From the UHGV virus genome UHGV-0010553: 40,433 nt of DNA. One strand, 5' to 3'. Made by a program: the position numbers and the translations under genes. This DNA is from a virus. Under the pieces are notes generated by a model. That model was not told where the DNA came from. It searched no databases and was given only the letters and a program-made list of their open reading frames with translations. Numbering within the stretch: position 1 is the first letter of the stretch; the number at the start of each line of letters is the position of its first letter. Positions 1 to 40,433 of this stretch are shown here, in pieces.

Positions 1-234
1 GACCTTAGCGTTGCCATAGACCTTAGCGTCGTCATAGACCCAAGCGTCGCCACAGACCTTAGCGTTGCCATAGACCTCGGCGTTGCCATAGACCTCGGCG
101 TCGCCATAGACCTCGGCGTTGCCATAGACCTTAGCGTTGCCATAGACCTTAGCGTTGCCATAGACCTCGGCGTCGCCATAGACCTTAGCGTTGCCATAGA
201 CCTTAGCGTTGCCATAGACCCAAGCGTCGCCAGA
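1..234. repeat. 13 tandem copies of an 18-bp unit (consensus gaccttagcgttgccata). They are coding, giving hexapeptide repeats on the minus strand. The same array is present at 40245..40433.
   Basis: Direct reading: 18-nt periodicity with point variants (ctcggcgtc, ccaagcgtcgccaca). Bases 1-54 are identical to 40380-40433. Confidence 0.9.
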
Positions 235-378
235 GAGATTGGATTCTTTCTCAATATATCCACCTAAATTGCCCTTAGACACTCTTCGCGATTCGATGTC
301 GCAAGTTGCCTCGATTCTAAATAGCCTGCGCCCTAAAAATTCTATTGATAAATCTTCTCTTAATTTAAAATTACTCAT
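1..378 (-). CDS. Hexapeptide-repeat (beta-helix-like) protein, N-terminal part. Start codon at 376-378 (AGGAGG RBS, TAATG overlap with the upstream stop). It runs off the window start and continues, if the molecule is circular, into 40433..40002.
   Basis: Minus-strand translation gives MSNFKLREDLSIEFLGRRLFRIEATCDIESRRVSKGNLGGYIEKESNLSGDAWVYGNAKVYGNAKVYGDAEV... The repeats are V-Y-G-[ND]-A-[KEW], encoded by the 18-bp tandem repeat. The ORF-track frame MATLRS is the wrong frame. Confidence 0.55.
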   Translation of the reverse strand, partial: MSNFKLREDLSIEFLGRRLFRIEATCDIESRRVSKGNLGGYIEKESNLSGDAWVYGNAKVYGNAKVYGDAEVYGNAKVYGNAKVYGNAEVYGDAEVYGNAEVYGNAKVCGDAWVYDDAKVYGNAKV

Positions 379-24554: not shown

Positions 24555-25446
24555 GATATATCGTCTTACGGTTCAACTCCAAGACGAGCAAGGAAAAAAT
24601 ATAAATCAGGCTCTTGAGATTCAAAATCCGTTTACAGTTAAGTTTTCGGTTGATAGATCTATCTATGCCGGATTGAACTCTTTAGATATAGATATTTACA
24701 ATCTATCCCCTAAAAACAGAAACCTTTTGTTTCAAGACGTTTATGGGGATAGAGATGGTAATTATAGAAACGTTATCTTAGAGTCCGGCTACCAAGGGCA
24801 AGGAATGTCCGTTATCTTTAACGGTAACGTTTGGTCTGCTTATTCCAAGAGAAACGGTGTGGACGTTATAACGCATATTTACGCCATTGATGGGCTTTCC
24901 ACTCAATCAGGAATGATAAATACTACCTTAAAGAGCGGAACAACCGCTCAAGAGGTTATCCAAGCTGCGGCAGGGCAACTAAAAGACCTAAAAACTGGCA
25001 CAATGAATATTCCTGACCACACATTTGATCGTCCTGTTGTCCTTGCCGGAAACGCCTATAAGATATTAAAAACTTATTCTGATGATAATGTATTTGTGGA
25101 TATGAAGACAATTCATATTATGAAACCGAATGACGCTATTGAGGGGGTTATTCCTCTTATCACAGATAGTTCAGGACTTTTAGCGACTCCTGAAAGGCAG
25201 GACGCAACATTAACTATCAGAATGATATTTGAACCACGTCTTCAAATCGGGCAGCTGATTCAAGTAAAATCAGAGATTGCGCCTCAATTTGACGGTGTGT
25301 ATAAAATATATGGTATAAAACATAACGGAACAATCAGCGATGCCGTTGCGGAGAATTGCACAACAACAATTCAACTCCAAGTCGGCTCACAAGTATTCGG
25401 GAGGTTCAATGTCCTTAAAGCCGAACAGCAACAAATCTCTAAGTAA
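24538..25446 (+). CDS. Baseplate hub protein (P2 gpD / Mu gp44-like)
   Basis: N-terminal YRLTVQLQDEQGKNINQALEIQNPFTVKFSVDRSIYAGLNSLDIDIYN resembles the GPD family start (RLTV..G.DIT...L.D..G.E.D.L.I.L.N). Confidence 0.5.
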   Translation: MGKLNRIYRLTVQLQDEQGKNINQALEIQNPFTVKFSVDRSIYAGLNSLDIDIYNLSPKNRNLLFQDVYGDRDGNYRNVILESGYQGQGMSVIFNGNVWSAYSKRNGVDVITHIYAIDGLSTQSGMINTTLKSGTTAQEVIQAAAGQLKDLKTGTMNIPDHTFDRPVVLAGNAYKILKTYSDDNVFVDMKTIHIMKPNDAIEGVIPLITDSSGLLATPERQDATLTIRMIFEPRLQIGQLIQVKSEIAPQFDGVYKIYGIKHNGTISDAVAENCTTTIQLQVGSQVFGRFNVLKAEQQQISK

Positions 25447-26071
25447 CGTATTAGACGAGTCTTTTAGTGTCTTTTCTCGGTTCTTCCATTGCGTGAAAAT
25501 CGGGGAAATTCAGTCATTTGATAAACAAAATCAAACTGTTTCCGTAAAGATTCTCTATAAAGGGATTAACGATTATAATCTTCAAGAAAGAGAATTGGTC
25601 GATTTTCCAGTTTTAGAGCAAGTTCCCGTAGTCGTTTTGGGCGGTGGTGGAACTTATATCTCATACCCTATCAAAAAGGGCGATGATTGCGTTCTCTTGT
25701 TTAACGATTACGAACTAGACGGTTGGTGGTCTTCTGGTGAGGCTAGACCTTCTGAATTTCCTCGTAGACACGATTTGTCGGACGCTATCGCTATTGTCGG
25801 GCTTAATTCTCTTGTTTCCTTAATAAAAGATTATTCGGATTTTCTGAAAATTCATTATTCCGATTCGTCAAATATCACCGTTGGAAACACAATAGAAATA
25901 ACCAACCAGACAATCAATCTTAATGGCAATTCTAATGTTTCAGGAAATGAAACAGTTTCAGGAACAGTAACAGGAGAGGTTCACTCAACACACGGTGCAA
26001 GTGGTAGCTTCTCAAATGCTGCAGGACAAACACTTACCATTGTTGACGGTGTTATAACGTCTATATCATAA
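25409..26071 (+). CDS. Baseplate spike protein gpV-like (OB-fold plus C-terminal beta-helix tip)
   Basis: PVLEQVPVVVLGGGGTYISYPIKKGDDCVLLFNDYELDGWW is a gpV OB-fold signature. The C-terminus is repetitive: ITVGNTIEITNQTINLNGNSNVSGNETVSGTVTGEV. GGGAGG RBS at MSLKPN. Confidence 0.6.
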   Translation: MSLKPNSNKSLSNVLDESFSVFSRFFHCVKIGEIQSFDKQNQTVSVKILYKGINDYNLQERELVDFPVLEQVPVVVLGGGGTYISYPIKKGDDCVLLFNDYELDGWWSSGEARPSEFPRRHDLSDAIAIVGLNSLVSLIKDYSDFLKIHYSDSSNITVGNTIEITNQTINLNGNSNVSGNETVSGTVTGEVHSTHGASGSFSNAAGQTLTIVDGVITSIS

Positions 26072-26177: not shown

Positions 26178-26203
26178 AAAACGAACCTTTAATTTACCGA
26201 ATG
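26178..26203 (+). other. Recombination crossover site S1 (aaaacgAACCTTTAATTTACCgaatg), forward orientation
   Basis: One of six copies of the 15-bp core AACCTTTAATTT(G/A)CC. Confidence 0.6.
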
Positions 26204-26502
26204 CTTCTGGTAGGTCTGTCTTTCAATCCGCAGATAAAACACTAGGGAATGGTGGCGCAGGTGCATTGCCGAATATTACGGGTAAATTTGCGGTAGGTAA
26301 TACTCAATCACCCCCTATTGACCCCATAGGTCAAGGAGCATTCGAAGACCATGGTATATCAGGTGGGACTGTGGGGTCTGCCTTTACGCCAGCAGGTACA
26401 TATTATGACTTTGACGCCTCGCGGTCAAACAGCTTATATCGAAGTGATACTGATATAGTGATACCTGCTAGTATTTTGGTTATGTTTGCCATAAAATATT
26501 AG
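26179..26502 (+). CDS. Promoterless tail-fibre C-terminal cassette A. It begins at crossover site S1 (KRTFNLPNASGRSV...) and ends ...FDASRSNSLYRSDTDIVIPASILVMFAIKY.
   Basis: The frame opens exactly at the site (stop-K-R-T-F-N-L-P-N). The C-terminal FDASRS...V.P....AIKY motif is shared with the other cassettes. Confidence 0.6.
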   Translation, partial: KRTFNLPNASGRSVFQSADKTLGNGGAGALPNITGKFAVGNTQSPPIDPIGQGAFEDHGISGGTVGSAFTPAGTYYDFDASRSNSLYRSDTDIVIPASILVMFAIKY

Positions 26503-26807
26503 AACTTAATACAGTAAGACACCTCAATATTGTCAGGTTGAACTTTCGCGCCGTCTTGGTAAGTTGAAGATGAACGAGAGGCGTCAAAAGCATAACCAAA
26601 CAATTTTTCTGCGTTACTTCCTGTACCCGCATAATCTCTACCAGTCGCAGCATCAACATAAAAAGCTCCCGTTGCTGATCTATCGTTTGATCTTAAAGTT
26701 GTATTACCTTTAATATTCGGCAAACTCTCGCTGTTATATGTGCCTGCTGTTCCGCCTTTTAGAAATCTTCCAACAAGGTTAGGCAAATTAAAGGTTGAAT
26801 TATAAGT
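26499..26807 (-). CDS. Tail-fibre C-terminal cassette B (TFNLPNLVGRFLKGG...YCIKF), convergent with cassette A; the stops overlap
   Basis: Starts at site S2; the LPNLVGRFLKGG segment parallels LPDLRGRF at the end of a tail-collar domain. Confidence 0.6.
   Translation of the reverse strand, partial: TYNSTFNLPNLVGRFLKGGTAGTYNSESLPNIKGNTTLRSNDRSATGAFYVDAATGRDYAGTGSNAEKLFGYAFDASRSSSTYQDGAKVQPDNIEVSYCIKF
26778..26801 (-). other. Crossover site S2 (reverse orientation)
   Basis: ggcaaattaaaggtt on the plus strand at 26782-26796. Confidence 0.6.
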
Positions 26808-26868: not shown

Positions 26869-27288
26869 ATGCTTGCATATCAATATAATGAAGATTCTAA
26901 GAAGTTTACAAACGAGATTACTTGCCAGAAAGACCCGTTAGAATCTGAAATGGCAGGTAAAGACATCTGGTTACTACCTGCTAATTCCACTTGGGAAAAA
27001 CCTTTAGAGCCTAAAGAGGGCTTTGAAGTTAAGTTTTTAGAGGGCAAGTGGCAGTATGAGGCTATCCCTGAACCTGAACCCGAGCCAGAGCCCGAACCGA
27101 CTGAAAAAGAAAAGATTGAGCGTGAAATTTGGAATCTCAAGGGCGAACTTAGCTCTACAGATTATAAGGCTATCAAATACGCCGAGGGTTGGATTAGTGA
27201 AGAAGAATACGCCCCTATTAAGGCAGAACGCCAAGCCTTGAGAGATAAGATTAACGAATTGGAAGAAAAGTTAAAAACGCTTGAATAA
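26869..27288 (+). CDS. Tail-fibre-associated protein (XkdW-like, putative fibre assembly/chaperone) with an (EP)n linker
   Basis: YNEDSKKF...DIWLLPANSTWEKPLEP...EPEPEPEPEPEP...; GAAAGG RBS. Confidence 0.4.
   Translation: MLAYQYNEDSKKFTNEITCQKDPLESEMAGKDIWLLPANSTWEKPLEPKEGFEVKFLEGKWQYEAIPEPEPEPEPEPTEKEKIEREIWNLKGELSSTDYKAIKYAEGWISEEEYAPIKAERQALRDKINELEEKLKTLE
27061..27096 (+). repeat. Simple (GAACCN)n / (Glu-Pro)n repeat
   Basis: cctgaacctgaacccgagccagagcccgaaccg. Confidence 0.8.
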
Positions 27289-27888
27289 ATGAACTATGCC
27301 TATCTAAGAATTAGCACCGTTGCACAAGACGAACAGAACCAACGCCAAGGCGTTGATTTGAAGGCAAAACAGCTCAATTTACAGATAGACAAATACATAA
27401 TTGACAAGGTTTCAGGATCTACATCTCCAAAAGTCCGAAATCTCGGTAAACTAATAAAGTGGCTAAAAACCGGTGACGTTGTGATTGTTTCAGAACTATC
27501 TAGGCTTAGCCGCTCTCTTTTTGACTTGTTTAATATTTTTCAAGCTATCCTTGCTAAAGGAATAAAACTCATCACTGTTAAAGAGAACTTTGTTGTTGAC
27601 GATTCTATCCAATCCAAGGCAATGATATTTGCATTTGGGCTAAGCGCAGAGATTGAAAAGAATCTTATCCGTGAGCGGACAAAGGAAGCATTAGAAAGAA
27701 AAAAGGCTCTGGGTGTACGCCTAGGGCGCCCACAAGGGGCAAAAACAAAAATCCATAAACTAGAACGCTATAAACAAAATATCGCTCTATGGCTTAAAAA
27801 AGGCGTTTCTAGACATAAAATAGCAAAGCGGTGTAAAGTATGCGATAAAACGTTAAGACGGTATATAAAAGCAAATAACCTCGGATAA
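27289..27888 (+). CDS. Serine recombinase, DNA invertase (Gin/Hin/Cin/Min-like)
   Basis: YLRISTVAQ (catalytic Ser), ELSRLSRS, ERTKEAL, and a C-terminal HTH RHKIAKRCKVCDKTLRRYIK. 199 aa, Hin/Gin size; sits among tail-fibre cassettes. Confidence 0.8.
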   Translation: MNYAYLRISTVAQDEQNQRQGVDLKAKQLNLQIDKYIIDKVSGSTSPKVRNLGKLIKWLKTGDVVIVSELSRLSRSLFDLFNIFQAILAKGIKLITVKENFVVDDSIQSKAMIFAFGLSAEIEKNLIRERTKEALERKKALGVRLGRPQGAKTKIHKLERYKQNIALWLKKGVSRHKIAKRCKVCDKTLRRYIKANNLG

Positions 27889-27997: not shown

Positions 27998-28023
27998 TTA
28001 ACGAACCTTTAATTTGCCTAATG
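27998..28023 (+). other. Crossover site S3 (forward)
   Basis: ttttaacgAACCTTTAATTTGCCtaatgg. Confidence 0.6.
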
Positions 28024-28337
28024 GCTATTGGAGACTCACCGATGAGTTAGATGCAAGCACTGCAGTTACGAAATATGTCAACAATGAAACCTTTACGGAC
28101 GATGGATGGGCGGCGATTTCGGCTAAAGGAACTGATAGAGGAACTCCCACATATACTTGGAATGGACAATCGATTACCGGCTTTGCCAACGGAGCAAGTT
28201 ATTTGCAAATCCCCAATATATTGTCATTATCGCACCAGGCTGGTGATTCTTTTGCTGTTAATGGTGATGGCTCATATAGAGGATATATTGGAATGGCTTA
28301 TAAAAACCCTCGACAACTTTATTGCATAAAGTATTAG
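28002..28337 (+). CDS. Tail-fibre C-terminal cassette E (RTFNLPNGYWRLTDELD...LYCIKY). Near-identical inverted copy of cassette G.
   Basis: The frame opens at S3. Its 107-aa sequence is identical to ORF 31959..32282 except one residue (E/K). Confidence 0.6.
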   Translation, partial: RTFNLPNGYWRLTDELDASTAVTKYVNNETFTDDGWAAISAKGTDRGTPTYTWNGQSITGFANGASYLQIPNILSLSHQAGDSFAVNGDGSYRGYIGMAYKNPRQLYCIKY

Positions 28338-29434
28338 TATTTTATCGCATACTTAATACAAGTATCTTCCTCACTGATAATTCCTGACGTTTGCGAATCC
28401 GTGCTTATGCCCCAAACTCCGGTATTCGCCACAAATAATGAGGTGTTACCTAATACTCTATTGGTTGAAAATTGAAAGTAACCCCCCATACCAGAAGTCG
28501 CATTATTGCCGGGATAGCGAGTTTCTTTGGCATTTAAAACATTTAACCCTAAGCCGTTACCATCGCCAATAACGTTTCTCGTTAAGAACTGCCTATTCGG
28601 CAAATTAAAGGTTGATTTATCGTTCCCACTGTTTCTGGTATAAGTTGCGCCTGCCGAATCTGTGAATCCGGTGTCTGTGATTGTGGCAATAGTAGCGGTT
28701 ATTGAAGCTCCATCCGAACCATAGATAGCATCTCCAACTTCTGGAGTTGCTTTGTTAATAAAATAGTCAACACCTGATGAAGTGTATGCATAGATACCAG
28801 ATGAATAGATACCGCCGATAACGGCAAACAGGGCAGAATAAGTTGTTCTTGATACAGCTGAACCATCACAAATAAGGTAGCCTGCAGGAGCGGTTGAGGT
28901 AGACCAAGCGATGATTGCTCCGGTAGGATTACCTGCGGATTGTGTGGCGTTGTAAACCGCAGCAGATGACGGGTATTTTGTAGTTGAATCAGTCAGGTCT
29001 TGCTCCATATTAGCCAAGGTCTGAAGTCCTTGTGTAGTGTTGTAAACCAAATCCCAGTTATTGGCTGTAGTCGGAGCAATACCTGCTGTTTCATCAACTT
29101 TGCATTTATAGAGAGCGTAGTCAGAATCAGTGATAACTTTAACAACTGCGCCTTTATAATAAGTAGTTCCAGAATCATACTCAGGAATACCCTCTTGCAT
29201 AAGATAGGCAATCTGGCTTGTCTGCATATATTGAAGCCCTTGAAATTCCTCAAGAGGAGGTAGCTTTTCAGAAGAAATAGTTGCTGAGTTCCAACCTGTT
29301 TTATAAGCGTCCAAGGACTGAATTTGAGCAATATCATTTGATACAGTTCCAGTTCCTGCTTGTAAAGAGCCAAACACACCGTTATTGGTTGCATTTTCAG
29401 CAAATACTTTTTGAGTTTTTCTTGCAAGTTTCAT
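28334..29434 (-). CDS. Tail fibre protein, currently assembled. It has a constant N-terminal part with a phage tail-collar domain (29434..28614) fused at site S4 to a variable C-terminal cassette (28613..28334).
   Basis: AIIAWSTSTAPAGYLICDGSAVSRTTYSALFAVIGGIY...KSTFNLPNRQFL is a tail-collar signature; the TFNLPN is encoded by crossover site S4. C-terminus is CIKYAIKY. AGGAGAG RBS. Confidence 0.75.
   Translation of the reverse strand: MKLARKTQKVFAENATNNGVFGSLQAGTGTVSNDIAQIQSLDAYKTGWNSATISSEKLPPLEEFQGLQYMQTSQIAYLMQEGIPEYDSGTTYYKGAVVKVITDSDYALYKCKVDETAGIAPTTANNWDLVYNTTQGLQTLANMEQDLTDSTTKYPSSAAVYNATQSAGNPTGAIIAWSTSTAPAGYLICDGSAVSRTTYSALFAVIGGIYSSGIYAYTSSGVDYFINKATPEVGDAIYGSDGASITATIATITDTGFTDSAGATYTRNSGNDKSTFNLPNRQFLTRNVIGDGNGLGLNVLNAKETRYPGNNATSGMGGYFQFSTNRVLGNTSLFVANTGVWGISTDSQTSGIISEEDTCIKYAIKY
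28595..28617 (-). other. Crossover site S4 (reverse). It lies inside the expressed tail-fibre gene, at the collar TFNLPN motif.
   Basis: ggcaaattaaaggtt at 28599-28613. Confidence 0.6.
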
Positions 29435-29436
29435 AG

Positions 29437-30054
29437 CTACTCTCCTATTACTTCAATAATCTTATGATAGTTTAATGTTTCTCCGACTTTTTCGGGATTA
29501 TCATACGTCCTAAATCCCGTTTTGTAAAATGCGTATTGATTGTCGTATGTAACGAACCCGAATATTGGAGAATTTTGAACAATAACGTATCTAACGCCTA
29601 CTCCCATAGGGCGAGGTAGACAATCCTTCTGAATAGCCGCTATAACTACACGAGAAGCCCCTTCAGGAATAAAAAAGGTAAGTTCCATACCACCATTGGA
29701 TTCCGCCCTCACAGTTCGCCCAAAGAAGCTATATAATGCCGTGTCAATATCATAATGCGAACAGTTACTTGTGTTGGCAATACATTTAAACTTTAACAGA
29801 GTTCTAAACTCGTCATCTGTCAGTTCGATAATCTCGCCTTTAGTTCCGATATAGTATCTGTCAGTTCCGACATATTTAGCAAGAATATCTAATTGTTTAC
29901 CGACAGCGGTTTCAAGAGAAAATCCATCCCTGACAGCAAAAATCAAATCAACCGGAAACTGACTACCAATAGCCTTTATGGTTTCTTTTGCTTTGGGTTT
30001 ATCTCTATACTGTATAATTAAGAGTTCGGATAAATATTGTGCATAATCAAACAA
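29437..30054 (-). CDS. Baseplate protein gpI-like (P2 I / XkdU-like). TTG start immediately after the J stop.
   Basis: Position between gpJ and the fibre; ~200 aa. Confidence 0.4.
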   Translation of the reverse strand: MFDYAQYLSELLIIQYRDKPKAKETIKAIGSQFPVDLIFAVRDGFSLETAVGKQLDILAKYVGTDRYYIGTKGEIIELTDDEFRTLLKFKCIANTSNCSHYDIDTALYSFFGRTVRAESNGGMELTFFIPEGASRVVIAAIQKDCLPRPMGVGVRYVIVQNSPIFGFVTYDNQYAFYKTGFRTYDNPEKVGETLNYHKIIEVIGE

Positions 30055-31251
30055 TTATACCCCCCCCTGAACAGTTATATCAACCGTGGACAGGACAAAT
30101 TTCGTTGCAATAACAGGTGAAAGATACTCAACCCAATCTGTGCCGTTACTAGAGATTAAAACATTTAGAGCTAGACCTTCTCCACCATTAGCGTCAATAG
30201 CCGCTTGAGCGGTTGCTGTAAGAGAGGCTGTATCTGCATATCCACCAATCATAAAAGAAGTGTTATCGATGATATACTGCGAGATAGCGTCTGTATCAAA
30301 AGTAATGTCTGTTTTCAAAGACTTAATTGTAAATCTCATTTGAATATTTTGAGTTGTCGGTTCGCTCCACTTAGCAATAAACTGTTGGTTTGACGGAGTT
30401 GTAATAGTATATGAAATATCGCCTTTCATATCACAACCATAAGATTTTTTAACATATAAAGCGTTTGCAATATCTTTTGACGCTCCACCCTCTACAATAA
30501 GCCAAATACAATGAGGTGGGATACCCTTTGAATCGGTAACGCTAGAGTAGTTTTCATAAAGCGCACCATCCGTAACGCCGTTTAGTTGGAGGACATAAGC
30601 TAAAAGGCCGTTAAGGTATCCCGAAGAACCGATTGAAACAGATTGTCTGCGTCTGATTTTAAGAGAGGTATCTGTTTCTTCATTCTCTCCTAAAGTCAGT
30701 TGCGCACCAGTATTTATAACCGAAACCACGCCCAAAACAATAGTAACAGGAGTTGTGATAGTTTCAGGGATAACTTCCACCCTTCCAAGCTGTTGGGCGC
30801 GGAATAAAACACTATGCGTTCCAGCTGTCAGTGTTTGAGAGTTTACGAGAATAAACTGAGTTCCTGCGTTATCTTGAATCGTGTAACCAGTAGCGTCAAC
30901 ATCGTTATAATTTGCGTCTAGTCCTTGTAAAGATACTGTTCTGTCTACTGTTATTGAAATGTCTACCGTTGTGAAAGTTCCGCCTTTACGGAATACGTTA
31001 TTGATAGCACATCTCTCGTCAAGGAGTCTTCCTGAACAGTTATCGGGGTCAAAAGAATTATATAGTTGAACCAAGAGTTCTCTAATATCCGTCTGTCCCT
31101 GAGCAAAAATATTGATAGCCTGTCCATCAGGCGAGTTCTGCTCGACAGAAATATCATCTCCATATACAGTCTTAAAAGAAGTTGTCAAATCATCGACAAG
31201 CTCTGTATTTGTTGAAACCTGTAAACCGTTTGCGCTTAATGAATCGGTCAT
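30055..31251 (-). CDS. Baseplate J-like protein (P2 gpJ / Mu gp47 family)
   Basis: 398 aa, located between the gpW-like and gpI-like genes; GAGGT RBS. Confidence 0.55.
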   Translation of the reverse strand: MTDSLSANGLQVSTNTELVDDLTTSFKTVYGDDISVEQNSPDGQAINIFAQGQTDIRELLVQLYNSFDPDNCSGRLLDERCAINNVFRKGGTFTTVDISITVDRTVSLQGLDANYNDVDATGYTIQDNAGTQFILVNSQTLTAGTHSVLFRAQQLGRVEVIPETITTPVTIVLGVVSVINTGAQLTLGENEETDTSLKIRRRQSVSIGSSGYLNGLLAYVLQLNGVTDGALYENYSSVTDSKGIPPHCIWLIVEGGASKDIANALYVKKSYGCDMKGDISYTITTPSNQQFIAKWSEPTTQNIQMRFTIKSLKTDITFDTDAISQYIIDNTSFMIGGYADTASLTATAQAAIDANGGEGLALNVLISSNGTDWVEYLSPVIATKFVLSTVDITVQGGV

Positions 31252-31589
31252 ATCTTTACCTCAATAGTTTCATTGTAAATCGTCTTTAATCTTGCTGCGC
31301 AAGTATATACTCTACCAGCCATAGAGCTTTCAAAGAACGTAAGCTCAGTAACGCCTTCTTCTGTGGATATAATTCTTTTTATGGCGGAATCTGCGTCATC
31401 TTTTGAAACCTTAGAACCTAAGATATTCTTCCAGTCAACGCCCTTTTCCATATCAAAAAAGCAATCTCTATACCACGATAGGATTTTTGTCTTAATCGAA
31501 TAAGCAATAGCTAAAGCATCTGAGGAATAATCCTGCTTACCTTTTCCGAACAACCAATCGTGATTACTATCCAAAGCTCTAAATCTCAT
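31248..31589 (-). CDS. Baseplate wedge protein gpW / gp25-like
   Basis: 113 aa, upstream of J; typical gene order W-J-I-fibre. Confidence 0.45.
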   Translation of the reverse strand: MRFRALDSNHDWLFGKGKQDYSSDALAIAYSIKTKILSWYRDCFFDMEKGVDWKNILGSKVSKDDADSAIKRIISTEEGVTELTFFESSMAGRVYTCAARLKTIYNETIEVKI

Positions 31590-31606
31590 TTAACACCTCT
31601 ACAAGC

Positions 31607-31635
31607 ATAATATAAGACTTGATTAAAAAAATCAA
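31607..31635 (-). promoter_or_regulatory. Promoter TTGATT-N17-TATTAT reading into gpW-J-I-fibre. It lies inside the putatively invertible S4-S5 segment.
   Basis: Minus strand reads TTGATTtttttaatcaagtcttaTATTAT. Confidence 0.4.
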
Positions 31636-31649
31636 ATCATATGGAATTT

Positions 31650-31675
31650 AAAACGAACCTTTAATTTGCCTAATG
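31650..31675 (+). other. Crossover site S5 (forward)
   Basis: aaaacgAACCTTTAATTTGCCtaatg. Confidence 0.6.
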
Positions 31676-31962
31676 CTTCTGGCAAATCTCTTTATCAGAA
31701 CGACACTCTAGACATAGGTCAAGGAACACTTGGCGCTGTGCCGAATATTAGAGGAAGTGTTGAAATTAATACCGGTACACATACTTTTAATGGCGCATTT
31801 TATAGCACAAATGTTTCATATAGTCGCAGTGTATCATCTTCGACCCATACTACTGACGTTGCGTTAGGATTTGACGCCTCTAAATCTTCTTCCGTTTATA
31901 CGGACGACATAACTCGCGTAATCCCTGCAGCCATTCATATTGTTTTTGCGATAAAATACTAA
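31651..31962 (+). CDS. Tail-fibre C-terminal cassette F (KRTFNLPNASGKSLYQ...FDASKSSSVYTDDITRVIPAAIHIVFAIKY), homologous to cassette A
   Basis: Frame opens at S5; shares the N-terminal LPNASG and C-terminal motifs with cassette A. Confidence 0.6.
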   Translation, partial: KRTFNLPNASGKSLYQNDTLDIGQGTLGAVPNIRGSVEINTGTHTFNGAFYSTNVSYSRSVSSSTHTTDVALGFDASKSSSVYTDDITRVIPAAIHIVFAIKY

Positions 31963-32297
31963 TACTTTATGCAATAAAGTTGTCGAGGGTTTTTATAAGC
32001 CATTCCAATATATCCTCTATATGAGCCATCACCATTAACAGCAAAAGAATCACCAGCCTGGTGCGATAATGACAATATATTGGGGATTTGCAAATAACTT
32101 GCTCCGTTGGCAAAGCCGGTAATCGATTGTCCATTCCAAGTATATGTGGGAGTTCCTCTATCAGTTCCTTTAGCCGAAATCGCCGCCCATCCATCGTCCG
32201 TAAAGGTTTCATTGTTGACATATTTCGTAACTGCAGTGCTTGCATCTAACTTATCGGTGAGTCTCCAATAGCCATTAGGCAAATTAAAGGTTCGTTT
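31959..32297 (-). CDS. Tail-fibre C-terminal cassette G (inverted near-identical copy of E)
   Basis: Protein identical to cassette E except one residue; starts at S6. Confidence 0.6.
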   Translation of the reverse strand, partial: KRTFNLPNGYWRLTDKLDASTAVTKYVNNETFTDDGWAAISAKGTDRGTPTYTWNGQSITGFANGASYLQIPNILSLSHQAGDSFAVNGDGSYRGYIGMAYKNPRQLYCIKY

Positions 32298-32298
32298 T
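32273..32298 (-). other. Crossover site S6 (reverse)
   Basis: ggcaaattaaaggttcgtttt at 32278-32298. Confidence 0.6.
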
Positions 32299-32310: not shown

Positions 32311-32339
32311 TTGACAATTAAATTTAGTTTTCGTATTTT
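32311..32339 (+). promoter_or_regulatory. Promoter-like TTGACA-N17-TATTTT upstream of 32361
   Basis: ttgacaattaaatttagttttcgtatttt, then an AAAAAGGAG RBS. Confidence 0.35.
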
Positions 32340-32360: not shown

Positions 32361-32579
32361 ATGAGAGTTGGTAGCCAAATATTGATTGATAGAACGACAA
32401 CGGCAAGTGCTGCTTATGTCGGTGTTTCCGCTAGTGGAACAAAAGAAGGCGATCCCAACTGGTCTATCGAAAAAATAACCTATGATGAAGATGGAAAACC
32501 TATCTCTATTCAATGGGCAGAGGGAACTGATGAAGAAGTCCTCGTTTGGGATAACCGTGTAACATACAAGTATAAATAA
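32361..32579 (+). CDS. Small hypothetical protein (72 aa)
   Basis: Strong RBS. Confidence 0.45.
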   Translation: MRVGSQILIDRTTTASAAYVGVSASGTKEGDPNWSIEKITYDEDGKPISIQWAEGTDEEVLVWDNRVTYKYK

Positions 32580-33535
32580 TGATAACCGCTATTGACTTAA
32601 AGACTGGGAAGCCCTTACTCCTTGATATTGCCAAAGAAGAAATAACTCCCACCCTTGGCTCGCACTCCACATTAACAGACAGAACTATTGCCGACCAACA
32701 CCCTATTGGGTCTATTACTGGTTTGGAAACCCGTCTTTCAACTAATGAAGAAGACATCGCTACCCTTAAAAACGACAGGGACGATTTAGGCGACCAAGTC
32801 CACTCAATTCAAGCTGACGTAAACTCACTTAAAGATACTTCTGTTACTCTTACCGGAGAGCAGACGTTGTCTAATAAATCATTTAAAGATTCCCTGAAAG
32901 CAGTTGGAGATGAAACAATAGGAGAAACTTTTGAGGTTTCATTCCTTGCCGGAACTGCGCAGCTTGCAACAAACAATGGGTTAGATATTCTTTCGGAAAC
33001 TAACTTTTTAACCAATCCTCAAACAGAGGCAACGACTGATTGGGATTCTCTTGCTCCATCAGAATTGCCTAGCAAAAGTCAAGTTGCTCAGGCTATTTCA
33101 GAGGTTACAGGCTCTCACTTTGACAAGTGGGTTGCGATGGGAGCTCCAGAAGCTCTTACTCTTACGGAAACCCTGCAAAAGGTATATATCCCCGCGACAA
33201 CAAGATTTCCGAATATTCCGCCTGCAACATTTGAGCTTACAGAAGACGGGACAGGTATCACATTCAAAAAAGCCGGTTTAATTCATCTTAAGAGAAACGT
33301 ATCCCTTAGTGGAGCTAATCAGGTAAACCTTTATTATGAGGCTCGTATTAACGACCAACAGCTTGCACCTTTGCAGACACAAGCTGTTAGTGTTTCTGAA
33401 AACACGATGTCGTTTAGTATTGAATTTTATTGGCAAGTAACAGCTAATCAGACAATATCTATTTGGGCTAACTGCTTAACTGGAACAGCTCCCTTAAACT
33501 ATAAGGGAGTCTGCACAATGGTTGAATATCTATAA
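32579..33535 (+). CDS. Second fibre-like or receptor-binding protein candidate (coiled-coil N-terminus plus C-terminal beta-rich domain)
   Basis: LETRLSTNEEDIATLKNDRDDLGDQVHSIQADVNSLKD coiled coil, then a Ser/Thr-rich region. Confidence 0.35.
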   Translation: MITAIDLKTGKPLLLDIAKEEITPTLGSHSTLTDRTIADQHPIGSITGLETRLSTNEEDIATLKNDRDDLGDQVHSIQADVNSLKDTSVTLTGEQTLSNKSFKDSLKAVGDETIGETFEVSFLAGTAQLATNNGLDILSETNFLTNPQTEATTDWDSLAPSELPSKSQVAQAISEVTGSHFDKWVAMGAPEALTLTETLQKVYIPATTRFPNIPPATFELTEDGTGITFKKAGLIHLKRNVSLSGANQVNLYYEARINDQQLAPLQTQAVSVSENTMSFSIEFYWQVTANQTISIWANCLTGTAPLNYKGVCTMVEYL

Positions 33536-34130: not shown

Positions 34131-34620
34131 ACCACCCCTTTGACATATCTTTCAATGCGTTTTCAAACTTCTTTCCGACTTTACTTGTAGATACTCCCGC
34201 CTCGCACATGTCATTTATGAGCTGATTCAGGGCTTGTGTGGCGTTTTCTCTGTTTGCCTCGCCCCAACTATGCTCTTTTAAGACTCTCCCCCTCAGGAGC
34301 TCAATAACAGCCTTCCTTTGCTCTTCTTTTAACGGAAGAACTTTAATTGCTTTCCAAACACACTCCTTTGTCCAGTCGTCAAGTTCAGAGATATACATTA
34401 TCTCAACAAGACTAGCAATCCATTTGTAGTGCCAACGCAAATCATTATAGGTAAGAAAACTAGAGCAACCGGAATCCCAAAAGATTCTCAAAAGTCCGTG
34501 GAAAGCCTTATTCTGTTTGTTGGTTTTATACTTTTTCTCGTCCACTACTTCTATAAAACCATAATCAGAATCAATCTCAATTCCGGTTAGCTCTTTTATT
34601 TTCTCTTTGCTGTAACGCAT
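34117..34620 (-). CDS. NinB/Orf-like recombination mediator (putative)
   Basis: NKQNKAFHGLLRIFWDSGCSSF...LRWHYKWIASL parallels the NinB QN(R/K)..W..L...W core; adjacent to the ERF annealase. Confidence 0.35.
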   Translation of the reverse strand: MRYSKEKIKELTGIEIDSDYGFIEVVDEKKYKTNKQNKAFHGLLRIFWDSGCSSFLTYNDLRWHYKWIASLVEIMYISELDDWTKECVWKAIKVLPLKEEQRKAVIELLRGRVLKEHSWGEANRENATQALNQLINDMCEAGVSTSKVGKKFENALKDMSKGWYETN

Positions 34621-35288
34621 TATTGATCTTCTACAATAGTTTTAACAATTTCAGAACAACCCCAATAAACATCGGCTACATTTTCTCCATTAAGAAGAAG
34701 TTTACGGTTTCCTGAGAATTTAGTTAAGTTTTTGTATTCCTCGCTGTCTTGAGCAAACTTTTCTTTCCACTGATACCACAAAGCACTGACAGATTTAGGA
34801 TTTTGAGCGTTTGCAATAGCTTTTACAAAATCAGCGAACGTTTCAAGTTTAGGTGCATTCTTTTTGCCTTTAGCACTTCCGGCTACTCCATCATCGTCTT
34901 CTGTTTTGATATGCAACAGCGCATAAATAGAATAACGGCGCATATATGTTTCAGCACTGCCAACCGCCTGAGGGTCTATATCATCAACATATAGAGGCAT
35001 ATCGCATTCAATAATCTGTCCTGATTTATGAATCAGTTGACTGTGCAAAACAAAAGCCGGTGTCTCAATCTCAAGCGGCTCTTTGCCGTGTATTGAGCGT
35101 TTAAATACTCCATCTGTCTTCTTTACGTTCTGAATCAGAATAAAGTTGTTTTCGTGGATTTTAGGCAATACCTCTTCCAAGAGGGGGGTAAGTTCAACAT
35201 ACTTATACCCGTAACCCTCTTTGGCTTTTGTCATATTGTCAATGCTTGTGATTAACTTTTGATAATCGTTAAAAAATGTTTCTTCCAT
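34620..35288 (-). CDS. ERF-family single-strand annealing protein
   Basis: AVGSAETYMRRYSIYALLHIKTEDDDGVAGSA matches the ERF signature (GSA.TYARRY.L..L.GI..EDDDG). AGGAGG RBS at MEETFF; the ORF track's upstream extension is unsupported. Confidence 0.7.
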   Translation of the reverse strand: MEETFFNDYQKLITSIDNMTKAKEGYGYKYVELTPLLEEVLPKIHENNFILIQNVKKTDGVFKRSIHGKEPLEIETPAFVLHSQLIHKSGQIIECDMPLYVDDIDPQAVGSAETYMRRYSIYALLHIKTEDDDGVAGSAKGKKNAPKLETFADFVKAIANAQNPKSVSALWYQWKEKFAQDSEEYKNLTKFSGNRKLLLNGENVADVYWGCSEIVKTIVEDQ

Positions 35289-35311
35289 AGTAGTTCCTCC
35301 TAACATCAATA

Positions 35312-40039: not shown

Positions 40040-40433
40040 CGCAAATCTGTTTTAATATTGGTTTCCAAGTTTTCCACCATTCAACAGCTTTTTTACCATC
40101 CATTTTCTCAATTTCCGAATCTTTGAATTTGAACCAAGCTACTTTTGAATGATATTGGCAACCAATTTTTATGTGTAAGGGCGTTAAGGTTATATTATAT
40201 TTTTGATTGGCGATGTTTACTACACTGCGTTTGGTGTCGATAGCGTCGCCATAGACCTCGGCGTTGCCATAGACCTCGGCGTTGCCATAGACCTTAGCGT
40301 TGCCATAGACCTCGGCGTCGCCATAGACCTTAGCGTTGCCATAGACCTTAGCGTCGTCATAGACCCAAGCGTCGCCACAGACCTTAGCGTTGCCATAGAC
40401 CTTAGCGTCGTCATAGACCCAAGCGTCGCCACA
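40002..40433 (-). CDS. Hexapeptide-repeat protein, C-terminal part: repeats to 40245, then a ~80-aa non-repeat tail ending ...CDAQDKDLEKTNE*
   Basis: Hand translation of the repeat frame: ...VYGNAEVYGDAIDTKRSVVNIANQKYNITLTPLHIKIGCQYHSKVAWFKFKDSEIEKMDGKKAVEWWKTWKPILKQICDAQDKDLEKTNE. The ORF-track entry 40220..40432 is the wrong frame. Confidence 0.5.
   Translation of the reverse strand, partial: CGDAWVYDDAKVYGNAKVCGDAWVYDDAKVYGNAKVYGDAEVYGNAKVYGNAEVYGNAEVYGDAIDTKRSVVNIANQKYNITLTPLHIKIGCQYHSKVAWFKFKDSEIEKMDGKKAVEWWKTWKPILKQICDAQDKDLEKTNE
40245..40433. repeat. Same 18-bp tandem repeat array as at 1..234, 10.5 units
   Basis: Direct reading. Confidence 0.9.

What the first reader, a model, noticed from the sequence alone, without database searches (positions are those of the whole stretch)
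27998..32298. 350-bp near-perfect inverted repeat (cassette E versus cassette G) flanking the baseplate/fibre block
The cassettes at 28002..28337 (+) and 31959..32297 (-) encode proteins identical except for one residue (DELD versus DKLD). The flanking nucleotides, including crossover sites S3 and S6 and the gcataaagtattagtattttatcgc junction, are also identical. That is about 350 bp of inverted identity separated by 3.6 kb. It would allow RecA-dependent inversion of the whole block as well as invertase action. A recent duplicative inversion or gene conversion could have produced it. It also makes the locus quasi-symmetric.
Basis: seen in the sequence. Interest (0 to 1): 0.55.

Follow-up and report, generated by a model that had tools for sequence, protein, structure and literature searches.

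The report
Duplicated tail-fibre tip cassette, inverted
The 350-bp inverted repeat is real: it is one alternative tail-fibre tip cassette, with its recombination site, present twice on either side of the baseplate-wedge and fibre genes of a 40-kb phage that switches fibre tips by DNA inversion. This is an unusual layout of a well-known kind of host-range switch.

Summary
Confirmed. Window 28000-28349 and 31947-32296 are reverse complements, 349 of 350 identical. The one difference (28044 G against 32252) changes Glu to Lys. This is the only long repeat in the window apart from a tandem array at its ends.

Each arm is one complete fibre-tip cassette. It runs from 4 nt before a 15-bp crossover core (AACCTTTAATTTGCC) to 12 nt past the stop codon. 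The window has exactly six such cores in alternating orientation. All six downstream cassettes read in frame with the fibre's constant part, and a small serine invertase lies in the locus.

So this is a Min-like multiple-inversion switch. Unusually, the constant part of the fibre and three baseplate-wedge genes themselves sit on an invertible segment with cassette pairs on both sides.

The repeat is not an assembly artefact. Other metagenome assemblies of the same phage break exactly at the inner ends of the arms, and one contig carries both inner junctions.

One sample carries the opposite allele next to the invertase flank, with no other difference in 11 kb, so the arms exchange sequence.

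Related phages show inversions bounded by the cores, and one has an 86-90% identical pair in the same positions.

Recent duplication or gene conversion is inferred. Whether both orientations coexist needs reads.

The parts
28000..28349 (+). Left arm of the inverted repeat. It holds crossover site S3 (core 28004-28018), silent fibre-tip cassette E (in frame from the core, stop at 28335-28337) and 12 nt of the tail of cassette D. The SNP is at 28044 (G, Glu).
31947..32296 (-). Right arm of the inverted repeat. It holds crossover site S6 (core 32278-32292), silent fibre-tip cassette G (stop at 31959-31961) and 12 nt of the tail of cassette F. The SNP is at 32252 (Lys).
28334..29434 (-). Tail-fibre gene as currently assembled (366 aa). 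The constant part Hc is 29434->28614, site S4 has its core at 28599-28613, and cassette D is 28613->28334. It contains a phage tail collar domain.
29437..30054 (-). Baseplate wedge protein (DUF2612 / Phage_Wedge1, gpI-like), inside invertible segment d.
30055..31251 (-). Baseplate wedge protein, gpJ/gp6-like (phrog_6), inside invertible segment d.
31248..31589 (-). gp25-like wedge / sheath-initiator protein, the first gene of segment d. The 66-nt leader 31590-31655 carries a sigma-70-like motif (31635..31607).
31656..31962 (+). Site S5 (core 31656-31670) and silent cassette F. F is in frame with Hc and ends in AIKY.
26184..26502 (+). Site S1 (core 26184-26198) and silent cassette A, 112 nt downstream of the spike gene.
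26499..26796 (-). Silent cassette B and site S2 (core 26782-26796).
26869..27288 (+). Tail-fibre assembly/chaperone-like protein (139 aa), on invertible segment b.
   Evidence: (the homologue hits PF16778)
27289..27888 (+). Small serine recombinase (199 aa; YLRISTVAQ catalytic motif, resolvase domain plus C-terminal HTH). It is the presumed invertase and lies on segment b.
25340..26071 (+). Baseplate spike, the last gene of the + strand late operon. In all relatives without an invertase, and in L014, the wedge gene W lies downstream of it on the same strand.
34620..35309 (-). ERF-family single-strand annealing protein. It is a phage-encoded route to homologous recombination between the arms (inference).

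Best explanation
The repeat is a real two-copy inverted duplication of one alternative tail-fibre tip (receptor-binding) cassette together with its crossover site. It lies inside a six-site, serine-invertase-driven multiple-inversion locus of a ~40-kb contractile-tailed phage.

The locus reads: spike | S1 [A> <B] S2 | chaperone, invertase | S3 [E> <D] S4 | Hc-I-J-W (minus strand) | S5 [F> <G] S6. The sites alternate in orientation, so every segment can invert, alone or in odd-numbered groups. Any of the six cassettes can then be joined in frame to the fibre constant part Hc at the motif S-T-F-N-L-P-N.

E and G are the outermost cassettes of the two pairs that bracket the Hc/wedge segment. Their identity runs exactly from the crossover site to the tail-to-tail cassette junction. 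I therefore read the pair as a very recent cassette duplication, or a gene-conversion tract bounded by the two short conserved sequences every cassette shares: the site and the I-K-Y-stop end.

Consequences:
(i) Inversion of the whole c-d-e block can occur by the invertase at S3 x S6, or by homologous recombination anywhere in the 350 bp (host RecA or the phage's own ERF protein). The products differ only in which arm carries the SNP.
(ii) That flip would put W-J-I-fibre back on the same strand as the late operon.
(iii) Short-read assemblies break at the arms.

Shown: the repeat, its boundaries, the six sites, the in-frame cassettes, the two copies on one molecule, an allele exchange between samples, and core-bounded inversions in relatives. 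Inferred: duplication or conversion as the origin, activity of the invertase in this particular phage, and homologous flipping.
For: Repeat and boundaries. Exactly six cores in the window, alternating in orientation, none elsewhere. All six cassettes are open and in frame with Hc and end in (A/C)IK(Y/F). Serine recombinase, chaperone-like gene, wedge and fibre annotations.

Two copies on one molecule. L009 (3,879 nt, another sample) equals window 28209-32087 and has 141 nt of arm at both ends. L011 ends at 28349 and L013 starts at 31947.

Arm exchange. L011 matches the window over 11,061 nt with one mismatch, the arm SNP, and its arm next to the invertase is 100% the window's G arm.

The sites are real crossover points. 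Between L015 and L019 (98-99% identical in the flanks and wedge block) the chaperone+invertase segment is inverted with end points in the cores, and a cassette pair is flipped.

Cassette duplicates recur. L015's outermost cassettes T1/T4 occupy the same positions as E/G and are 86-90% identical inverted repeats. L022 has a direct duplicate.

A model of the site logic gives 384 isomers with each cassette reachable; F and G are reachable only through an inversion that includes the wedge segment.
Against: No alternative fusion of this phage's Hc (Hc-A, -B, -E, -F, -G) exists among 5.8 billion proteins; only Hc-D was found, on 4-5 contigs. The assemblies run through S1-S5 without a break. So switching in this phage is undemonstrated and may be rare.

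The sites show no clear dyad symmetry, and the recombinase is only distantly related to Gin/Hin.

E/G has no homologue outside this phage, so its role as a receptor-binding tip rests on position, reading frame and the conserved C-terminal motif only.

Duplication and gene conversion cannot be told apart from one genome.

The allele in L011 could reflect homogenised arms in that sample rather than a reciprocal swap, because the other arm of that contig could not be retrieved.
Confidence: 0.8

Rival explanations
1. Assembly artefact: a single cassette traversed twice by the assembler, or a chimera of two strains or isomers, so that no single molecule carries both arms.
For: The window and L012 are the same scaffold-level sequence, so the full arrangement is seen resolved only once. 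All other assemblies of this phage are broken at the repeat.
Against: L009 is one contig carrying D-tail|arm and F-tail|arm at its two ends. There is no crossover site at the tail-to-tail junction that could create those two contexts from one copy. W, J, I and the fibre occur only on the 3.6-kb piece, and that piece can be joined to the 36.5-kb piece only by passing the arm twice. The arms differ at one base. Four samples give the same break points.
Confidence: 0.04
2. The long arms are a selected, recombinase-independent switch. Homologous recombination (host RecA or phage ERF) between E and G flips the wedge/fibre operon, and both isomers coexist as a functional polymorphism, as described for IR-flanked segments in some cyanophages.
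For: 350 bp is ample for homologous recombination (established knowledge). The phage encodes an ERF protein. Short-read assemblies fail to orient the interior. A precedent exists for IR-bounded isomers in phage stocks (10.64898/2026.02.14.705889).
Against: The arms begin exactly at crossover sites, so the invertase can already do the same flip. In half of the 384 isomers E and G become direct repeats, whose recombination would delete essential genes or the invertase; that argues against long-term selection for the repeat. L019 lacks such a pair and L015's pair has drifted to 86-90%. The swapped SNP lies 45 nt from the outer end, so it is more easily explained by exchange at the site than by a crossover spread evenly over 350 nt.
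Confidence: 0.2
3. Continuing concerted evolution rather than a recent duplication. E and G are old paralogues kept identical by repeated gene conversion, perhaps started by abortive invertase cleavage when S3 and S6 are synapsed, with tracts running inward from the site.
For: Identity starts within 4 nt of the core and stops at the next conserved sequence. One sample has the other allele at the invertase-side arm with no other change in 11 kb, as expected if conversion is frequent.
Against: The homologous pair in L015 has diverged to 86-90%, so homogenisation is not a general property of the architecture. No other cassette pair in the window shows conversion tracts.
Confidence: 0.3

Closest known systems
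Min multiple-inversion system of phage-plasmid p15B (as summarised in PMC6109161; primary reference Sandmeier, Iida and Arber 1992)
   Same: A small serine recombinase. Six crossover sites, from my own knowledge of p15B; the multiple inversions are as summarised in PMC6109161. Alternative C-terminal tail-fibre cassettes arranged as convergent pairs, each preceded by a site at the constant/variable junction. Many isomers.
   Different: In Min the constant part of the fibre gene lies outside the invertible region, on one side, with the invertase on the other. Here Hc and three wedge genes are themselves an invertible segment with cassette pairs on both sides, and the invertase+chaperone segment is invertible too. 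The recombinase is not a close Gin/Cin/Min relative and the sites lack the dyad symmetry of cix-type sites.
Gin/G segment of Mu, Cin/C segment of P1, and the two-site relative L014
   Same: Site-specific inversion swaps the fibre C-terminus. The invertase sits next to the segment. L014 carries a 94% identical invertase in exactly this simple two-site layout.
   Different: Those have two sites and two tips. The window has six sites, five distinct tips plus one duplicate, and a movable expression unit.
Rin shufflon of Bifidobacterium prophages (PMC6109161) and the gin tail-fibre shufflon of Enterobacter phage FR-phi (PMC12330518)
   Same: Multi-cassette receptor-binding-protein switching in phages, with short asymmetric repeats in front of each cassette.
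   Different: Rin uses a tyrosine recombinase. In both systems the constant part is fixed at one edge of the locus, and no near-identical cassette pair bracketing structural genes is described in the passages read.
Mpi, master DNA invertase of Bacteroides fragilis (NCBIfam NF009949)
   Same: It is the best-scoring curated family for the recombinase (204 bits, E = 2e-60).
   Different: The score is below the family cut-off (272). Mpi flips promoter segments of polysaccharide loci in a bacterial chromosome, not coding cassettes in a phage.
IR-flanked invertible genome segments of Anabaena cyanophages (10.64898/2026.02.14.705889)
   Same: Inverted repeats of a few hundred bp bracket a segment that can exist in two orientations. 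The orientation is ambiguous to assemblers.
   Different: Those repeats are 400-700 nt and flank ~30 kb, with no identified invertase. Here the arms are functional fibre cassettes that start at invertase sites.

Membership tests
Hin/Gin/Cin/Min-type serine DNA-invertase switches of tail-fibre genes | Small serine recombinase: N-terminal catalytic domain with the nucleophilic Ser, and a C-terminal HTH | tested here: met
   PF00239 E = 7e-31, HTH_23, YLRISTVAQ motif; phrog_125 'DNA invertase' E = 6e-42
Hin/Gin/Cin/Min-type serine DNA-invertase switches of tail-fibre genes | Recombinase closely related in sequence to Gin/Hin/Cin | tested here: not met
   Gin (4m6f) scores only E = 9e-10, no better than gamma-delta resolvase at 1.7e-11. 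The best curated family is Mpi-like.
Hin/Gin/Cin/Min-type serine DNA-invertase switches of tail-fibre genes | Crossover sites in inverted orientation at the junction of the constant and variable parts of the fibre gene, with every variable part in frame | tested here: met
   Six cores in alternating orientation; six in-frame fusions; the same holds in L015
Hin/Gin/Cin/Min-type serine DNA-invertase switches of tail-fibre genes | 26-bp crossover site made of two imperfectly symmetric half-sites around a 2-bp centre | tested here: not met
   The best centre gives only 45% complementarity over 12 positions across 11 sites. Conservation is a 15-bp asymmetric core plus an A-rich left flank.
Hin/Gin/Cin/Min-type serine DNA-invertase switches of tail-fibre genes | Recombinational enhancer bound by Fis, which imposes inversion over deletion | not testable with these tools
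   The host is unknown and no enhancer model is available
Hin/Gin/Cin/Min-type serine DNA-invertase switches of tail-fibre genes | Inversion actually occurs at the sites | tested here: inconclusive
   Shown by comparison in the sister lineage, where L015 and L019 differ by core-bounded inversions. For this phage there is only an arm-allele swap between samples and no alternative fibre fusions.
Mpi-family master DNA invertases (NF009949) | Score at or above the curated equivalog cut-off | tested here: not met
   204.2 bits against a cut-off of 272
Shufflons in the strict sense (R64 Rci type) / Rin | Tyrosine recombinase | tested here: not met
   The only recombinase in the locus is of the serine type
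Homology-driven IR isomerisation of phage genomes | Long, near-identical inverted repeats bracketing the segment | tested here: met
   350 nt, 99.7% identical
Homology-driven IR isomerisation of phage genomes | Both orientations coexist in one population, independent of a site-specific recombinase | not testable with these tools
   This needs reads or PCR. The assemblies only show that the orientation is unresolved.

The most novel reading that the evidence does not exclude
The wedge-plus-fibre operon (W-J-I-Hc, with a promoter-like leader of its own) is a self-contained invertible expression module that swings between banks of tip cassettes on both of its sides. This layout is not described for Min, Gin, Cin or Rin, where the constant part is fixed. 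The E/G pair would then be a snapshot of cassette birth. It also adds a recombinase-independent route for flipping. In isomers where the copies become direct repeats, it gives a route to deleting the invertase and locking the phage; the invertase-less fossil locus in L022 fits that outcome.
Probability: 0.35. Interest if true: 0.65.

Novelty: new variant of a known kind. Interest (0 to 1): 0.45.

Why it matters
Phage tail-fibre inversion switches are textbook systems, so the repeat itself is not a new principle. Three points are useful.

(1) Structural genes of the baseplate, not just the variable fibre ends, can sit on an invertible segment. In two phage lineages they sit opposite to the rest of the late operon. 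This raises a testable question: how are they transcribed in either orientation?

(2) A 99.7% identical cassette pair sits next to an 86-90% pair at the same positions in a sister phage. This gives a rare before-and-after view of how new receptor-binding cassettes arise, by duplication and then divergence.

(3) Practically, such repeats make the orientation of several kilobases of a phage genome arbitrary in short-read assemblies. They fragment viral contigs at a predictable place, which matters for virome catalogues and for predicting host range from a single consensus sequence.

Tried and rejected
1. megablast of the 9-kb locus against 50,697 phage records found nothing. Protein-level relatives there are distant, at most 37% identity.

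2. GTDB genomes gave no relative of the J protein. The 20-mer site found only two chance hits with no related genes, so the host stays unknown. Haemophilus/Neisseria uptake sequences and tRNAs are absent.

3. Exact junction and site patterns in IMG/VR and JGI metagenomes gave zero hits, so no alternative isomers could be fished out by DNA.

4. I looked for alternative Hc fusions among homologous proteins and found none for this phage. Same-Hc, different-tip proteins exist only in the sister lineage, and they come from different strains.

5. I tried to retrieve the second arm of the ERZ27286996 contig to decide between swap and conversion. The look-up collapses similar places, so it could not be reached.

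6. The sigma-70 promoter scan found 23 sites against 20.5 expected from shuffles. The promoter-like motif upstream of W is therefore only a positional observation, although a similar motif occurs in L015/L019.

7. A search for dyad symmetry in the sites was negative.

8. A search for remote homologues of cassette E found only itself and two weak repeat-protein hits.

9. A transposon-like reading of the repeat was rejected: the arms are coding cassettes and there is no transposase between them.

10. I tried to reconstruct the ancestral spike|W junction from collinear relatives and found no recognisable shared intergenic sequence.
Full report
**Observation.** The repeat exists as described. The repeat finder reports arms 28000-28358 and 31938-32296, 359 nt at 99%. 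The pairwise alignment and a self-BLAST of the whole window give the strict core: 28000-28349 against 32296-31947, with 349 of 350 identical, no gaps, and 3,597 nt between the arms. The one mismatch is 28044 G against 32252 (A in coding sense). It turns ...TDELD... into ...TDKLD.... Apart from an 18-nt tandem array at the two ends of the window, nothing else in the 40.4 kb repeats over more than 45 nt.

**What the arms are.** A 15-bp core, AACCTTTAATTT(G/A)CC, occurs exactly six times in the window. The positions are 26184+, 26796-, 28004+, 28613-, 31656+ and 32292-, strictly alternating in orientation.
- One core (S4) lies inside the 366-aa tail-fibre gene (28334-29434, minus strand; phage tail collar domain).
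- I joined the fibre's constant part (Hc, 29434->28614) to the sequence downstream of each core. This gives six open reading frames of 366-384 aa. All pass through S-T-F-N-L-P-N at the core and all end in (A/C)-I-K-(Y/F).
- The cassettes form three convergent pairs: A/B, E/D and F/G.
- A 199-aa serine recombinase (resolvase domain plus HTH; phrog 'DNA invertase', E = 6e-42) and a chaperone-like gene lie between the first and second pairs.

Each arm of the repeat is therefore one whole cassette unit. It starts 4 nt before the core, where the unrelated left flanks of S3 and S6 end. It stops 12 nt after the stop codon, in the A-I-K-Y codons that the opposing cassettes D and F happen to share.

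**The unusual part of the layout.**
- The late operon runs on the + strand through Dit, plug, hub and spike, ending at 26071. The next genes expected are the gp25-like W, the J-like and I-like wedge proteins and the fibre. These lie 5.5 kb away on the minus strand (31589->28334), between S4 and S5.
- All thirteen relatives without an invertase (L001-L008, L020-L024), and also the invertase-bearing L014, have spike, W, J, I and fibre collinear.
- So in this phage Hc and three wedge genes form an invertible segment (d) with cassette pairs on both sides. The invertase+chaperone segment (b) is also bracketed by inverted sites.
- A small model of the site logic gives 384 isomers, with each of the six cassettes fused to Hc in 64 of them.
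- If inversions containing d are forbidden, only A, B, D and E can be reached. F and G are usable only if the wedge block itself flips.
- A single inversion at S3 x S6, or equivalently a homologous crossover anywhere in the arms, would put W-J-I-fibre on the same strand as the late operon while keeping the Hc-D fusion.

**Is it an assembly artefact? No.** Exact-protein look-ups retrieved independent metagenome assemblies of the same phage.
- L009 (3,879 nt) equals window 28209-32087. It is the interior plus exactly 141 nt (one k-mer) of arm at each end.
- L010 is similar at one end.
- L011, the end of a 36.5-kb contig, stops at 28349.
- L013, the end of a 36.7-kb scaffold from another sample, starts at 31947.

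The break points are the inner ends of the arms, as expected for a true repeat longer than k. L009 carries both the D-tail|arm and F-tail|arm junctions on one molecule. No crossover site lies at those junctions that could generate them from a single copy. The essential wedge genes can be connected to the rest of the genome only by passing through the arm twice.

The only fully resolved copy, L012 (40,647 nt), is 100% identical to the window and wraps around its ends, so it is not independent. The orientation of the interior in the window is therefore supported by a single scaffold. In the sister lineage, however, the corresponding arms are diverged enough to be resolved, and there the wedge block is also opposite to the hub/spike operon in four assemblies.

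**Do the arms exchange?** L011 matches the window over 11,061 nt with one mismatch, and that mismatch is the arm SNP. In sample ERZ27286996 the arm next to the invertase is 100% the window's G arm. An independent mutation at exactly that base is very unlikely. The difference points to inversion with exchange at or near S3 x S6, or to gene conversion between the arms. I could not retrieve the other arm of that contig, so I cannot tell these apart.

**Are the cores real crossover sites?** Comparative evidence says yes.
- L015/L016/L017 (a 42,950-nt phage) and L019 (41,379 nt) carry five cores, AACCTTTAAT(A/G)TTCC, around a homologous W-J-I-fibre block. Their J protein is 84% identical to the window's and their invertase 66%.
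- Between L015 and L019 the flanks and the wedge block are 98-99% identical and collinear. The chaperone+invertase segment, however, is inverted, with end points inside the cores (L015 11275-12400 against L019 6829-5704). One cassette pair is also flipped or shuffled.
- Proteins P0003-P0006 share one constant part (96-100% identical) and diverge from the F-N-x-P motif onward.
- L014 carries a 94% identical invertase in a plain two-site, Gin-like arrangement after a collinear fibre gene. This suggests the complex loci grew from a simple one, and that the invertase/chaperone/site module moves between phage lineages.

**Origin of the near-identity.**
- In L015 the outermost cassettes (T1, T4) occupy the same positions and orientation as E and G. 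They are inverted repeats at 86-90% identity.
- L019 has no such pair. L022 has a direct duplicate of a cassette start.
- The E-type and T1-type cassettes are unrelated in sequence.

Cassette duplicates therefore arise repeatedly and then diverge, and E/G is the youngest stage seen. The tract is bounded by the only two short sequences that all cassettes share: the site and the quasi-palindromic I-K-Y-stop junction. That fits either a duplication or a conversion tract anchored on those sequences. This step is inference.

Long-term selection for the repeat seems unlikely. In half of the isomers E and G become direct repeats, and recombination between direct copies would delete either essential genes or the invertase segment.

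**Homologous flipping.** This is plausible: 350 bp of identity, plus an ERF-family annealing protein at 34620-35309. It is untested.

**Limits.**
- No alternative fusion of this phage's Hc is recorded among 5.8 billion proteins, and the assemblies pass S1-S5 without breaks. Switching in this phage may be infrequent.
- The recombinase is as close to gamma-delta resolvase as to Gin. Its best curated family is the Mpi-type master invertase, below that family's cut-off.
- The sites show no clear dyad symmetry.
- Cassette E/G has no homologue beyond itself.
- A sigma-70-like motif lies in the 66-nt leader between S5 and W (TTGATT-17-TATTAT). A better one sits at the same place in L015/L019 (TTGAAA-16-TATAAT). 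This would let the block be expressed in either orientation. However, promoter-like matches are not enriched in this AT-rich region, so this is only a lead.

**Comparison with known systems.**
- Multi-cassette fibre switching by serine invertases is known: Min of p15B, and the gin shufflon of FR-phi. Rin does the same with a tyrosine recombinase (PMC6109161, PMC12330518). Fibre genes are a major class of programmed inversion targets (PMC9881135). IR-bounded genome isomers in phages have also been reported.
- What differs here is that the constant part of the fibre and the wedge genes lie on an invertible segment between cassette banks. The recombinase is Mpi-like rather than Gin-like. One cassette is present as a near-perfect inverted duplicate.
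- I rate this a new variant of a known kind, of moderate interest.

Noticed in passing
window 1-236 and 40241-40433: Both ends of the window lie in an 18-nt tandem array (unit about GACCTTAGCGTTGCCATA). L012 runs across the junction, so the genome assembles as a circle cut inside this array. Contig lengths differ between assemblies (40,433 and 40,647), probably because of array length.
   Followed up: partly
L022 8600-14200: A related phage has six copies of the same core (AACCTTTAATTTGCC / ...ATACC) and a chaperone gene 88% identical to the window's. No invertase gene is present in the 17-kb locus. A cassette start is duplicated in direct orientation (8657 and 9812, 54 nt at 100%). It looks like a locked or fossil version of the switch.
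   Followed up: partly
L014 4947-5546, compared with window 27289-27888: The invertase is 94% identical between phages whose baseplate J proteins are only 38% identical. L015 has 84% J identity but 66% invertase identity. The invertase/chaperone/site module appears to be exchanged horizontally between lineages.
   Followed up: partly
L003 9100-9498; L020 5164-5655: The spike-W junction is a hotspot for insertions in relatives: an HTH-type gene in L003 and an HNH endonuclease in L020. This is the same junction that is split by crossover sites in the window and in L015.
   Followed up: no
L015 12400-12430 and 7771-7785: A 12-nt sequence, GTCAAACAAACC, follows the spike stop codon, and its reverse complement precedes the W leader. 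Each copy abuts a crossover core, and T5 carries a 17-nt remnant of the T2-type cassette. This may be a footprint of the event that separated spike from W.
   Followed up: no
window 27835-27850 and 28343-28358: 16 nt near the end of the invertase gene (AAGTATGCGATAAAA...) are the exact reverse complement of the cassette tail-to-tail junction. About 0.7 such matches are expected by chance in the window, so it may mean nothing.
   Followed up: no
L011 and L013 contig ends: The large contigs carry the whole 350-nt arm at their ends, not just a k-1 overlap, while the interior contigs overlap by exactly 141 nt. For a MEGAHIT-style contig (k141_17946) I could not explain why the outer arm boundary is not also a break point.
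   Followed up: no
window 32311-32339 and 32361-33535: Two + strand genes of unknown function (72 and 318 aa) follow S6, with a TTGACA-17-TATTTT motif just upstream. The C-terminal 68 residues of the 318-aa protein are 81% identical to a region downstream of the fibre gene in L002.
   Followed up: no
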